NCBI RefSeq assembly: GCF_053078305.1 | Contig: NZ_CP166879.1 | Reading direction: 5' to 3' (one strand) | Length of the DNA: 64,000 nt | Shown here: piece after piece, positions 5,654-29,483 of the stretch | Layout: each line of letters begins with the position of its first letter | How positions within the stretch are numbered: position 1 is the stretch's first letter | Program-made: the position numbers and the translations under genes | The notes under the pieces: model-generated | What the model saw: the letters and a program-made list of their open reading frames with translations, nothing else | What the model was told of the DNA's origin: nothing | Database searches by the model: none

Positions 5654-6367
5654 TAAAAAAGTCCGTCTTCTGCTTACCTGTTTATTTTTCTATCTCTAAG
5701 AAAACATAATTAATATTATTTTTATGTGAGCTTATGCACAAAAATAACCAAGTATATTATCTTCTGGTAGAGATACAGGATACAGTTTGTAGGAGCTTTC
5801 TTTTTTGAACAATGATTTGCAGGACAGTTATGCTAAACTAGCGGAATCAGTATCACAACAATAAATGACTGTTCATACCTGAAATTTGAATTAACAGGCA
5901 TCATGAATGTCAATAGTCTAAGCGGTGACTACTTATATCGCTTGCATAAATACTAAACACTGACTAGAAAAGTATTGGATAACCCCGTCACTAAAAGTAA
6001 CGCTTCGGTTATTTGCTCGGAATGTATTAACGCCAAGATTGTTAGCCGTTACGCCTTATATCACTGGCGCTGACAAATGTTTCTTTTCTAATTTACTGAA
6101 CCGGCGCAGACACGCAGGAAAGCACGCCGGCACCGGTGTAATGCCAGTTCTAATCAATAAGAATGGAATGACGAATCAGTCAGGAAGGGATAACAACCCG
6201 CTGCTGAACGGAAGGTATCAGCAGGAAGATGAACGGGAATATCGCCAGCACCAAGGGCAGGGCCGGGTTCCACAATACCAGCGCTGGCATTTTGCACATT
6301 GCCAGCGTACCGGCATTACAACACGTTTCATGCTGCTGCCCCCAGGATTCCTCGATTCGTTGCTACA

Positions 6368-6405
6368 TCCACTGCTCTACTTCACTTCCACTGCTCCACT
6401 TCACT
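6368..6405. repeat. Tandem 19-bp direct repeat (1 mismatch) spanning the alpA copy-1 stop codon
   Basis: tccactgctctacttcact / tccactgctccacttcact read directly. Confidence 0.75.
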
Positions 6406-6579
6406 TTTGTACCAGCGGCTGCTGCGCCCCAGTTTGATGGGTTTAGGGAAATGGCCTTCACTGATCAACTTGTAAAACCATTTGTCGGTCATACCGGTGA
6501 AACTGGTGATATAGTTCATGTCGATCAGGGAATTATCGGCACGCAGAAATACGCTGTCGTGGCTTGTTGTAGTCAACAT
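6382..6579 (-). CDS. alpA: AlpA-family (phage Vis/AlpA) transcriptional regulator, copy 1
   Basis: 65 aa; ...MTDKWFYKLISEGHFPKPIKLGRSSRWYKSEVEQWK matches the AlpA family signature. Confidence 0.8.
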   Translation of the reverse strand: MLTTTSHDSVFLRADNSLIDMNYITSFTGMTDKWFYKLISEGHFPKPIKLGRSSRWYKSEVEQWK

Positions 6580-6644: not shown

Positions 6645-6860
6645 TCAGAACTGGCCTGTTACGGGATACCAGGGATTACCGGCGGGGTAACGGGCTTCCG
6701 GATCATACACACCACGATTATCGCGGACAAAATCACTGAACGCCCATATCACCTCTTTAAGTATGTCTTCGCAGTCCGGTAAATGACGATCCAGCGCCAC
6801 ATCCCGGGTGGTACAGCTTTGATGCGCCCGGTGACACAAAGCCCGGATTGTTCCAGACAT
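6645..6860 (-). CDS. Hypothetical 71-aa protein between the Gp2-family gene and alpA
   Basis: ATG-initiated ORF co-oriented with flanking genes; weak ribosome-binding site. Confidence 0.3.
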   Translation of the reverse strand: MSGTIRALCHRAHQSCTTRDVALDRHLPDCEDILKEVIWAFSDFVRDNRGVYDPEARYPAGNPWYPVTGQF

Positions 6861-6964
6861 CCTGAATCAAACGCCCCAGATTAGGGGCGTCGAAATATGC
6901 CTCTCTGACCATTATATTCCGGCGTACAGGTAGCAGGTCTGAAGTGACAATGCGTCACCTGACG

Positions 6965-10662: not shown

Positions 10663-11372
10663 TTAGCCTCTCATCACTTTATGCTGCAATTAACGTGATA
10701 CTGTCAGCATACCGCCAGACTGGCATTCTGGTACCCACCCCAAACTCATTACTCCCGAGCCACCACTTAACCGGTCTCTCAGACTGTCACTCACCAGGTC
10801 GGATATGTTTACCGCTCAGACGGATGCTTAATGCACTCTGTTCACGTACATTGCAGATACGTTTTATATACGCGGGTTATACGCCAGCTATCAGGGATAG
10901 CGCAGTCTGTTGCTACTGCGTTCTCATCATGCCCACTGATCACACTCACCGTGTTTATTTCACATATATGAACTCATGTATTTGATCTCATGTGTTTGAT
11001 CTCTCTTATATATTTATAATACCAATCAGACAGTCTTATCCCATCGGTGATACCTGTCACCTGCCCACCGGACACGGTCTGCCCCATCGTAACCGCCCCG
11101 TAAATAACTCTGCAATTATCAGAACGCCAGTTTTCCCCTCTTCCTCACGAAAATCATCCCTTCTTTATCGCGCGCGCGTGCGGAAGCATCGTTTCGTAAC
11201 AACCACCCGGCATACCGGTACGGCTCAGCCACCGTAACCTCCCCGTTTATCTCCTGGCGGTCACATTCCCGATTATTTTTTACGTTTCTCCCCGGTTGTT
11301 ATGCCGGTGAAGGTGGTGCGTTGTTTTCATGACCACACCGGCTGGTTTAACAACATCCGGAGGAACATTCTC

Positions 11373-11579
11373 ATGATCACCCCAGTTTCACTGATGGATG
11401 ACCAGATGGTCGACATGGCATTTATCACTCAACTGACCGGCCTGACCGATAAGTGGTTTTACAAACTCATCAAGGATGGTGACTTTCCTGCGCCCATCAA
11501 AATGGGCCGCAGCTCCCGATGGCTGAAAAGCGAAGTGGAAGCCTGGCTGCAGGCGCGTATTGCACAGTCCCGTCCGTAA
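11373..11579 (+). CDS. alpA: AlpA-family transcriptional regulator, copy 2
   Basis: 68 aa from MITPVSLMDDQ...; TDKWFYKLIKDGDFPAPIKMGRSSRWLKSEVEAW; GGAGG Shine-Dalgarno. Confidence 0.8.
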   Translation: MITPVSLMDDQMVDMAFITQLTGLTDKWFYKLIKDGDFPAPIKMGRSSRWLKSEVEAWLQARIAQSRP

Positions 11580-29236: not shown

Positions 29237-29483
29237 ACAAAATCTGTGCGTTAACGCTCCCTAACACAGGTAGCCAGGTATTTTATAAATCTCTGTATTT
29301 TGTTGTTACTTCGATTCCGCAATTCAGCATATCGAACCAGACAAAATGATTACAGCAAAGCACAAAAAAGAGGGATTATAGCGTCAAAAGAATTCGAATT
29401 GCACATGGGGGCCTCATTGGTGGCCTCGAAAACAACAAAGACAAAACAATCAATACAAAACAATTGGTTATATAACCAGTTTC

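What the first reader, a model, noticed from the sequence alone, without database searches (positions are those of the whole stretch)
6368..6405. 19-bp tandem duplication spanning the alpA copy-1 stop codon
Two adjacent copies (one mismatch) of tccactgctctacttcact on the plus strand. On the coding strand this duplicates the ...EVEQW codons, consistent with replication slippage that may have altered the AlpA C-terminus.
Basis: seen in the sequence. Interest (0 to 1): 0.25.

Follow-up and report, generated by a model that had tools for sequence, protein, structure and literature searches.

The report
Shared 19-bp duplication in alpA
A real 19-base tandem duplication sits at the end of a small genomic-island regulator gene (alpA), but it is an old mutation scar shared by roughly 800 E. 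coli genomes and occasionally lost again, not a recent event or a working element, so it is ordinary.

Summary
Two head-to-tail 19-bp copies lie at 6368-6386 and 6387-6405, with one mismatch. They cover the last six codons (SEVEQW) and the stop codon of a 65-aa AlpA-family gene (6382-6579, minus strand).

The duplication is not recent or private. The same two-copy array, with the same GTG/GTA marker and the same relic TAG codon 3 nt downstream, occurs in about 800 of 5,426 complete E. coli genomes and in 34 metagenome contigs. It sits in at least five alpA 5' backgrounds and three downstream contexts.

Single-copy relatives in E. coli and 9 or more other genera encode 71-82 aa, with a conserved tail W-MQQRIxDSRG that this allele lacks. 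So single-copy alleles do encode a longer C-terminus.

Either the +19 frameshift or the linked CAG-to-TAG nonsense codon is enough to truncate the protein, and their order is unresolved. At least three lineages lost one copy precisely, including O157:H7 sublineage Ic. Because of the TAG they still make a 65-aa protein, differing only at the last residue (M instead of K).

I found no sign of a binding site, structured RNA or phase switch. Verdict: an ordinary, reversible tandem-duplication polymorphism. Interest is low.

The parts
6387..6405 (-). 5' copy in coding sense of the 19-bp unit, AGTGAAGTGGAGCAGTGGA. It encodes S59-E-V-E-Q-W64 plus the first base of K65, and carries the GTG marker (6397 = c on the plus strand).
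   Evidence: GTG is shared by all 43 two-copy arrays examined
6368..6386 (-). 3' copy of the unit, AGTGAAGTAGAGCAGTGGA. It supplies the last two bases of K65 and the stop codon, and carries the GTA marker (6378 = t on the plus strand).
6382..6384 (-). Current alpA stop codon TGA, created by the +19 frameshift inside the 3' copy.
6363..6365 (-). Relic nonsense codon TAG in the original frame (CAG in intact alleles), 3 nt after the repeat. It is completely linked to the duplication.
6328..6367 (-). Relic of the former C-terminal tail coding region (M-Q-Q-R-I-E-E-S-R-G-A-A-A-stop in intact alleles), now untranslated. It also carries CGG to TGG and a G-run one base shorter (plus-strand C-run 6339-6343).
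6382..6579 (-). alpA copy 1: a 65-aa AlpA-family winged-helix protein (RefSeq WP_000958487.1) that lacks the conserved tail.
   Evidence: Pfam PF05930 39.4 bits against a cut-off of 21, residues 22-64; annotation; family alignment
6645..6915 (-). Remnant of the upstream co-oriented 191-aa gene. Only residues ~97-185 remain, in two frames. This shows the module in this window is decayed, but the remnant is not obligatorily linked to the duplication.
   Evidence: the upstream gene is intact beside duplication alleles in L061-L066

Best explanation
The repeat is a mutational scar with no function of its own. It is a single, old 19-bp tandem duplication of the last six codons of an AlpA-family gene; AlpA-type proteins are small island/prophage excisionase-regulators.

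Because 19 is not a multiple of 3, the ribosome leaves the 5' copy out of frame, reads one Lys codon across the junction and stops at a TGA inside the 3' copy. This gives a 65-aa protein that keeps the Pfam AlpA domain. It lacks the conserved tail MQQRIxDSRG, which forms the second half of the predicted C-terminal helix.

A nonsense codon (CAG to TAG) in the old frame 3 nt after the repeat is completely linked to the duplication. Either lesion alone gives a 65-aa product, so one of the two is redundant. I lean slightly (about 55:45) to the nonsense codon having come first and the duplication being a near-neutral passenger (M65K). The order is inferred, not shown.

The duplication+TAG core arose once. 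Homologous recombination then shuffled it among alpA alleles and islands. Like any tandem duplication it is unstable: slippage or unequal exchange between the copies has precisely removed one unit at least three times.

Shown: the anatomy, single origin, wide distribution, collapses, and tail conservation. Inferred: the mutational mechanism, the order of lesions, and that the tail-less protein is functionally impaired or altered.
For: Anatomy.

Single origin and spread:
- All 43 two-copy arrays examined have GTG in the 5' copy, GTA in the 3' copy and TAG after the repeat. These are the window, E. coli loci, 1 GTDB contig and 34 metagenome contigs.
- No duplication+CAG allele exists among 5,426 complete E. 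coli genomes.
- 828 records cover at least 80% of a 120-nt probe across the array. Of these, 32 are collapsed alleles. About 1,600 records match only from the start of the 5' copy (single-copy alleles).
- The core occurs with five different N-terminal variants (P0137, P0151, P0168, P0184, P0186, P0187) and with mch, rpiB and pap downstream contexts.

Tail is ancestral and conserved:
- In 22 full-length homologs, drawn from E. coli (including the window's second alpA copy) and 9 or more other genera, the counts are W 22/22, M 19/22, R 21/22, I 20/22, S 22/22, R 22/22 and G 20/22.
- The second alpA copy in the window (11373-11579) keeps the tail LQARIAQSRP.
- AlphaFold places K59-G75 in one helix, so the truncation removes 10 of 17 helix residues.
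- The closest intact allele is 77 aa and identical over the 177 nt upstream of the repeat. It is single-copy with GTG and CAG.

Collapses:
- O157:H7 Z1812 is identical to EDL933 over about 6.58 kb except for the 19-bp unit, and the outgroup O55:H7 has two copies.
- All 32 such complete genomes are strain 9000 or Z-named O157:H7 isolates deposited in one accession series; strain 9000 and the Z isolates named in PMC8743559 are sub-lineage Ic PT21/28 (PMC8743559).
- L049 (AGA...GTA, a chimera of the two Nissle-type copies) and L050 (AGA...GTG) are two further collapses with different registers.

No function: no Rfam match, RNA fold z = +0.47, and no excess of promoter or terminator motifs at the repeat.
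Against: The order of the duplication and the TAG is not resolved. No pre-duplication GTA+TAG allele was found that cannot be explained as a collapse, and no duplication+CAG allele was found.

The two copies differ (GTG versus GTA). Simple slippage therefore needs an extra point mutation. Alternatively the array arose by out-of-register exchange between two diverged alleles; both marker states exist in single-copy alleles.

Microhomology at the unit boundaries is only 1 nt, which is weak support for classical slipped-strand mispairing.

The 65-aa ORF is intact in every background sampled, so the truncated protein may still work. 'Scar' describes the repeat, not necessarily the gene.
Confidence: 0.85

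Rival explanations
1. Recent, private replication slippage in this genome.
For: Adjacent near-identical copies look young.
Against: The identical array, with the same internal mismatch and the same linked TAG, is present in about 800 complete E. coli genomes of many serotypes and in 34 metagenome contigs. The O55:H7 outgroup of O157:H7 already has it.
Confidence: 0.02
2. The duplication came first. The +19 frameshift was the original lesion that removed the tail. The TAG arose later in untranslated DNA, either by chance or selected as a second lock because the duplication can collapse.
For: The duplication alone gives ...EQWK-stop. No GTA+TAG single-copy allele was found that is not a collapse product. 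Collapses are recurrent, so a second lesion would stabilise the truncation.
Against: No duplication+CAG allele was found anywhere. Between KOr021 and its nearest single-copy relative EA13, TAG is the only substitution in the tail. Only about 5 of 117 possible single-base changes there create a stop in the old frame, so this would be a coincidence of roughly 4-5% without selection. An independent TAG-only allele (P0183; L058-L060) shows that a nonsense codon at this position arises and persists without any duplication.
Confidence: 0.4
3. The array arose by out-of-register (unequal) recombination between two diverged alpA alleles or paralogues, rather than by intramolecular slippage. The GTG and GTA copies would then be the ends of the two parents.
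For: Both markers exist in single-copy alleles: GTG in PA45B and L051-L056, GTA in EA13. The window allele is a mosaic around the repeat: 0/177 differences from L054 upstream but 8/75 downstream, against 18/177 and 3/75 for PA45B. Genomes carry up to 6 related copies.
Against: The duplication core has since been recombined into at least five 5' backgrounds, so the mosaic could be secondary. The informative interval is about 75-90 nt wide, so the breakpoint is not pinned to the repeat.
Confidence: 0.35
4. The loss of the AlpA tail is adaptive, for example by locking the island in the chromosome or changing regulator activity. The duplication+TAG allele would then have spread by selection.
For: The tail was lost by at least two routes. 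One is the duplication+TAG core. The other is an independent single-copy GTG+TAG allele in a different tail background (P0183, on 65 or more contigs). The 65-aa ORF is kept intact in about 800 genomes and five backgrounds. No integrase lies within about 42 kb on one side or 57 kb on the other in the nearest genome.
Against: There are no functional data. The pattern is equally expected from neutral decay of a redundant regulator in a degraded island: here the upstream gene is a remnant. The second TAG could be a short gene-conversion tract rather than an independent mutation.
Confidence: 0.15
5. The direct repeats are a functional DNA or RNA element: a binding site, iteron, att core, structured RNA, or a phase-variation switch.
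For: Direct repeats can be binding sites. Copy number does vary between 2 and 1 among strains.
Against: There are only two copies, inside a coding sequence, and none elsewhere in the window. The repeat is absent from most homologous loci. There is no Rfam hit or stable fold. A collapse changes only one residue because of the TAG, so there is no ON/OFF output. No 3-copy array was seen among 43. Collapses are rare and lineage-fixed, not high-frequency.
Confidence: 0.02

Closest known systems
AlpA of E. coli K-12 prophage CP4-57 and of Shewanella CP4So (Pfam PF05930, Phage_AlpA; excisionase or activator of the island integrase)
   Same: A small winged-helix protein of the same Pfam family. It sits in a CP4-57-like island backbone with YfjI, YagK/YfjJ, Ag43 and CbtA/CbeA neighbours. 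In CP4So, AlpA is required for excision and its overproduction induces excision (PMC5148205).
   Different: This allele is truncated to 65 aa and lacks the conserved C-terminal helix half. No integrase is nearby in the closest genome. Its activity is untested.
Intact 77-82-aa alleles of the same alpA subfamily (e.g. WP_096913055.1/P0166, PA45B WP_000958091.1, EA13 WP_039023560.1)
   Same: P0166 is identical over the first 64 residues, and the DNA upstream of the repeat is 0/177 different in L054. Island position and neighbours are the same.
   Different: They have a single copy of the 19-bp unit and CAG instead of TAG. They keep the tail MQQRIEESRGAAA, and their stop codon overlaps (ATGA) the start of a small downstream ORF.
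Frameshifting tandem duplications that revert by precise loss of one unit (the classical behaviour of slipped-strand or unequal-exchange mutations; own knowledge, e.g. the lacI tandem-repeat hotspot)
   Same: Head-to-tail copies, a unit length that is not a multiple of three, and 2-to-1 copy collapses with different crossover registers in independent lineages.
   Different: Collapse does not restore the full-length protein here, because a linked nonsense codon sits 3 nt downstream.
Phase-variable simple-sequence contingency loci
   Same: Repeat copy number differs between strains and lies in a reading frame.
   Different: The unit is 19 bp with only two copies, variation is rare and lineage-fixed, and copy number has no ON/OFF consequence.
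Solved relatives: PDB 8c3t_A (AlpA family phage regulatory protein) and 1z4h TorI
   Same: Weak but collinear sequence matches (E = 1e-3 and 0.016). The 8c3t alignment runs through the tail (WMQQRIEE against WIEARKSS).
   Different: These are distant relatives. No structure or function is known for this subfamily's tail.

Membership tests
AlpA / Phage_AlpA (PF05930) family, applied to the gene | Significant match to the Pfam Phage_AlpA domain above the gathering score | tested here: met
   39.4 bits against a cut-off of 21; residues 22-64 match model positions 7-50 of 51
AlpA / Phage_AlpA (PF05930) family, applied to the gene | Complete C-terminal helix and tail (W-MQQRIxDSRG) as in the closest subfamily | tested here: not met
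   The protein ends at W64-K65. The tail is present in 22/22 full-length homologs, with S and R invariant. The model places the helix at K59-G75.
AlpA / Phage_AlpA (PF05930) family, applied to the gene | Location in an integrative island or prophage backbone with a cognate integrase | tested here: inconclusive
   A CP4-57-like backbone is present (YfjI, YagK/YfjJ, Ag43, CbtA/CbeA). No integrase is annotated within about 42 kb to the left or 57 kb to the right in the nearest genome.
AlpA / Phage_AlpA (PF05930) family, applied to the gene | Excisionase or transcription-activator activity | not testable with these tools
   Needs excision, reporter or EMSA assays
Tandem duplication polymorphism (slippage or unequal exchange) | Head-to-tail copies with no spacer, far beyond chance | tested here: met
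   TRF score 71; expected 1.4e-5 per window
Tandem duplication polymorphism (slippage or unequal exchange) | Single-copy state in related alleles, with precise gain or loss of exactly one unit | tested here: met
   Single-copy alleles; three precise collapses
Tandem duplication polymorphism (slippage or unequal exchange) | Flanking microhomology that would favour slipped-strand mispairing | tested here: inconclusive
   Periodicity extends only 1 nt beyond two units (2.1 copies)
Phase-variable contingency repeat | Frequent copy-number change that switches the reading frame ON and OFF | tested here: not met
   Only 2-to-1 changes were seen, fixed in lineages. The product is 65 aa in both states because of the TAG. 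No 3-copy arrays were seen in 43.
Functional direct repeats (iterons, att core, operator) or structured RNA | Conservation of the repeat across homologous loci, further copies nearby, or a stable or known RNA structure | tested here: not met
   Absent from about two thirds of E. coli alleles and from other genera. No other copy in the window. No Rfam hit; fold z = +0.47.

The most novel reading that the evidence does not exclude
Loss of the conserved C-terminal helix half of this AlpA subfamily may be a selected, convergent event. It happened at least twice, once through the duplication+TAG core and once through an independent TAG in another tail background. It could immobilise or re-wire islands that carry cargo such as microcin H47, and the two redundant lesions would keep the truncation stable despite frequent collapse of the duplication.
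Probability: 0.12. Interest if true: 0.35.

Novelty: already known. Interest (0 to 1): 0.1.

Why it matters
It matters little.

The allele is catalogued in RefSeq (WP_000958487.1), and both the gene family and the type of mutation are well known.

Practical value:
- The 2-versus-1-copy state is a clean indel marker. Loss of one unit marks O157:H7 sub-lineage Ic PT21/28.
- It warns annotators that many 65-aa 'AlpA' proteins are truncated alleles lacking a conserved tail.
- If the tail is needed for excisionase or activator function, about 15% of sequenced E. coli carry an island module with a crippled recombination-directionality factor. This bears on island stability.

Tried and rejected
1. 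A 3-copy probe against E. coli genomes returned 'No match'. BLAST's low-complexity filter probably masked it, so the result is uninformative. I used a local regex on 48 arrays instead and found no 3-copy array.

2. Relaxed selection after truncation. The window allele has N16 and S17 where 22/22 and 21/22 full-length homologs have D and P. I rejected this as evidence of decay because an intact 77-aa allele with the same N-terminus exists (P0166).

3. The idea that the duplication is always linked to the decayed upstream gene. This held for the first loci. It was rejected once duplication alleles with an intact 190/191-aa upstream gene were found (L061-L066).

4. Mosaic structure as proof of an unequal-crossover origin. 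This is weakened because the core has been recombined into many backgrounds.

5. Structured RNA, terminator or promoter at the repeat: nothing found.

6. The small Cys-rich ORF downstream as a conserved, translationally coupled gene. Only 16 homologues were found, all of those with a source name from E. coli, and no Pfam family reached its curated cut-off. The evidence is weak and I left it as a side note.

7. Literature. No paper mentions a 19-bp alpA duplication, and no paper was found for PDB 8c3t.

8. The first attempt to map protein ids to my query order was wrong. I corrected it by fetching the sequences.

Full report
**Observation**

The finding is real and sits exactly where it was reported. 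Tandem Repeats Finder gives 6368-6406, period 19, 2.1 copies, 95% matches and score 71. This is the strongest of only three arrays in the window.

The two plus-strand copies are 6368-6386 and 6387-6405, and they differ at one position (6378 t versus 6397 c). No further copy exists in the window with up to three mismatches. Chance expectation for such a pair is about 1e-5 per window.

On the minus strand the copies read AGTGAAGTGGAGCAGTGGA | AGTGAAGTAGAGCAGTGGA. They cover the last codons of ORF 6382-6579, a 65-aa protein ending ...RWYKSEVEQWK. The K codon straddles the junction (6387-6385) and the stop TGA (6384-6382) lies in the 3' copy.

**The gene and its setting**

The protein matches Pfam Phage_AlpA (PF05930) at 39.4 bits against a cut-off of 21, over residues 22-64. 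RefSeq annotates it as WP_000958487.1, a helix-turn-helix transcriptional regulator.

The setting is a genomic island of the kind found next to the kps capsule genes:
- Microcin H47 genes (mchB, mchI, mchS3), an esterase and an IroB/MchA-like glycosyltransferase lie on one side.
- A CP4-57-like backbone lies on the other: YagK/YfjJ, zinc-ribbon and Gp2-like genes, Hha, a second alpA, YfjI, Ag43 and CbtA/CbeA.
- The kps capsule and gsp type II secretion genes follow.

In the closest genome (strain 04-00955, 99.3% identical over 25 kb) no integrase is annotated within about 42 kb on the microcin side or about 57 kb on the other side.

**What single-copy alleles look like**

Alignment with related E. 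coli loci shows alleles with one copy of the unit. These read on as ...EQW-MQQRIEESRGAAA (77-78 aa) or ...MQQRIEGSRGGCSIVQD (82 aa).

In a set of 22 full-length homologs the tail is strongly conserved: W 22/22, M 19/22, R 21/22, I 20/22, S 22/22, R 22/22 and G 20/22. The set comes from E. coli and from Citrobacter, Serratia, Klebsiella, Enterobacter, Arsenophonus, Edwardsiella, Providencia, Yersinia, Kluyvera and others. The second alpA in this window (11373-11579) also keeps the tail, as LQARIAQSRP.

An AlphaFold model of the 78-aa form (mean pLDDT 75.5) puts K59-G75 in one C-terminal helix. The 65-aa allele therefore loses 10 of its 17 helix residues, including the invariant S-R.

The nearest solved relative by sequence is PDB 8c3t, an AlpA family protein, and the alignment runs through the tail.

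**The duplication is not the only truncating lesion**

Every allele with two copies also has ATG-TAG immediately after the repeat (6363-6365), where intact alleles have ATG-CAG. The +19 frameshift alone gives ...EQWK-stop. The nonsense codon alone gives ...EQWM-stop. Both products are 65 aa.

- A probe for duplication+CAG found none in 5,426 complete E. coli genomes.
- A pattern spanning the junction, with N at the three variable sites, was scanned over 100,044 species-representative genomes and the metagenome collection. It returned 1 and 34 contigs, all with G/A/T at those sites.

In this window the relic tail carries two further changes: CGG to TGG, and a G-run one base shorter (plus-strand C-run 6339-6343). 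Restoring the tail here would therefore need more than one reversion.

**Distribution**

A 120-nt probe across the array matched 2,427 records, and 828 of them at 80% coverage or more. Of those 828, 32 are collapsed alleles joined from two pieces. The other roughly 1,600 records match only from the start of the 5' copy, meaning they are single-copy alleles with other tails.

Carriers include O157:H7 (EDL933, TW14588, 86-24), O55:H7, O26, O103, O111, O145, O104:H4, Nissle 1917 and UPEC strains.

The duplication+TAG core is found:
- with at least five N-terminal variants of the protein (P0137/P0151, P0184, P0168, P0186, P0187);
- with either a decayed or an intact upstream 190/191-aa gene;
- with mch, rpiB/ogl or pap genes downstream.

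Identical internal markers across all these backgrounds indicate one origin followed by shuffling through homologous recombination. The window allele itself is a mosaic. It has 0/177 differences from the intact allele L054 upstream of the repeat but 8/75 downstream. For PA45B the pattern is reversed, 18/177 and 3/75.

**Collapse of the duplication**

Thirty-two complete genomes have one copy (GTA) followed by TAG in the window-type flank. These are strain 9000 and the UK O157:H7 'Z' isolates deposited in one accession series; strain 9000 and the Z isolates named in PMC8743559 belong to sub-lineage Ic PT21/28.

Over about 6.58 kb, Z1812 is identical to EDL933 except for the 19-bp unit. The outgroup O55:H7 differs at 10 SNPs and still has two copies. 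This is therefore a secondary, precise loss of one unit.

Two more collapses occurred in the Nissle-type background, where the 5' copy carries AGA:
- L049 keeps AGA...GTA, a chimera of the two copies.
- L050 keeps AGA...GTG.

These three registers are what slippage or unequal exchange between tandem copies predicts. No 3-copy array was seen among 43.

**A second route to the same truncation**

A single-copy GTG+TAG allele (P0183; L058-L060; 65 or more contigs) has the nonsense codon in an otherwise L051-type tail (CAG CGA ATT ... TCA CGA GGA). It also has an intact upstream gene. This is either an independent CAG-to-TAG mutation or a very short conversion tract.

It shows that tail-less alleles arise and persist without the duplication. 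That is part of why I lean slightly to 'nonsense first, duplication second' for the main haplotype.

The other part is a probability argument. Under 'duplication first', the only substitution in the relic tail between KOr021 and EA13 would have to be, by chance, one of the roughly 4-5% that create a stop in the old frame.

The order remains unresolved. Neither intermediate was found outside the collapse clades.

**Origin mechanism**

Intramolecular slippage needs an extra point change to explain GTG versus GTA, and boundary microhomology is only 1 nt. Out-of-register exchange between two diverged alleles explains the two markers directly, because both states exist in single-copy alleles. The later recombination blurs the evidence, however. 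I rate unequal exchange at about 0.35 as the sub-mechanism.

**Functional readings rejected**

There is no Rfam family, no unusual RNA fold (z = +0.47) and no promoter or terminator signal at the repeat. The repeat is not conserved across homologous loci, and copy number has no ON/OFF consequence.

**Comparison with known systems**

The gene is a truncated member of the AlpA/Phage_AlpA family. Better-studied members act as excisionases or activators of island integrases: in Shewanella CP4So, AlpA is required for excision and sufficient to induce it (PMC5148205).

The repeat behaves like any frameshifting tandem duplication that can revert by loss of one unit. It is not a contingency locus.

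**Verdict**

The feature is an ordinary, old, widely shared and reversible duplication polymorphism in a catalogued allele. Interest is 0.1.

The only mildly novel reading that remains open is that loss of the AlpA tail is selected, and reached by more than one route. I put this at probability about 0.12.

Noticed in passing
window 6218-6331 (-): A small Cys-rich ORF (37 aa here, MKRVVMPVRWQCAKCQRWYCGTRPCPWCW...; 41-52 aa in other loci). Its ATG overlaps, as ATGA, the stop codon of full-length alpA alleles, which suggests translational coupling that the truncated allele would lose. Gene callers call it in L051-L053 and L058-L060. Only 16 homologues were found, all of those with a source name from E. 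coli, and no Pfam family reached its curated cut-off.
   Followed up: partly
window 6339-6343: A homopolymer (plus-strand C-run, G-run in coding sense) in the relic tail is 5 long here. It is 6 long in most mch-type alleles and 7-9 long in rpiB-type alleles. This is length variation in DNA that is no longer translated.
   Followed up: partly
window 6645-6915 (-): The gene upstream of alpA is a remnant. Only residues ~97-185 of a 191-aa protein survive, split over two frames. The same gene is intact beside other alpA alleles, including some that carry the duplication.
   Followed up: yes
L058-L060 (E. coli draft genomes; alpA at 1501-1698): An independent single-copy alpA allele with the same CAG-to-TAG nonsense codon in a different tail background. 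This is parallel loss of the conserved AlpA tail or a very short gene-conversion tract.
   Followed up: partly
L011 (JAIJJM010000258.1, 'Collinsella sp.' MAG), 340-381: A GTDB species-representative MAG labelled Collinsella holds a 4.3-kb contig that matches the E. coli mch-type duplication allele over the 341 bases read around alpA. It is almost certainly a mis-binned E. coli contig.
   Followed up: no
window 11373-11579 (+): A second alpA paralogue, 68% identical over 50 aa, in the opposite orientation about 5 kb away. It keeps the conserved tail (LQARIAQSRP) and is followed by a YfjI-family gene, so the window holds one truncated and one intact AlpA.
   Followed up: partly
window 10965-11003 and 29429-29464: Two short 14-bp tandem arrays (2.8 and 2.6 copies, scores 57 and 51). 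Apart from the alpA array these are the only tandem repeats in the window.
   Followed up: no
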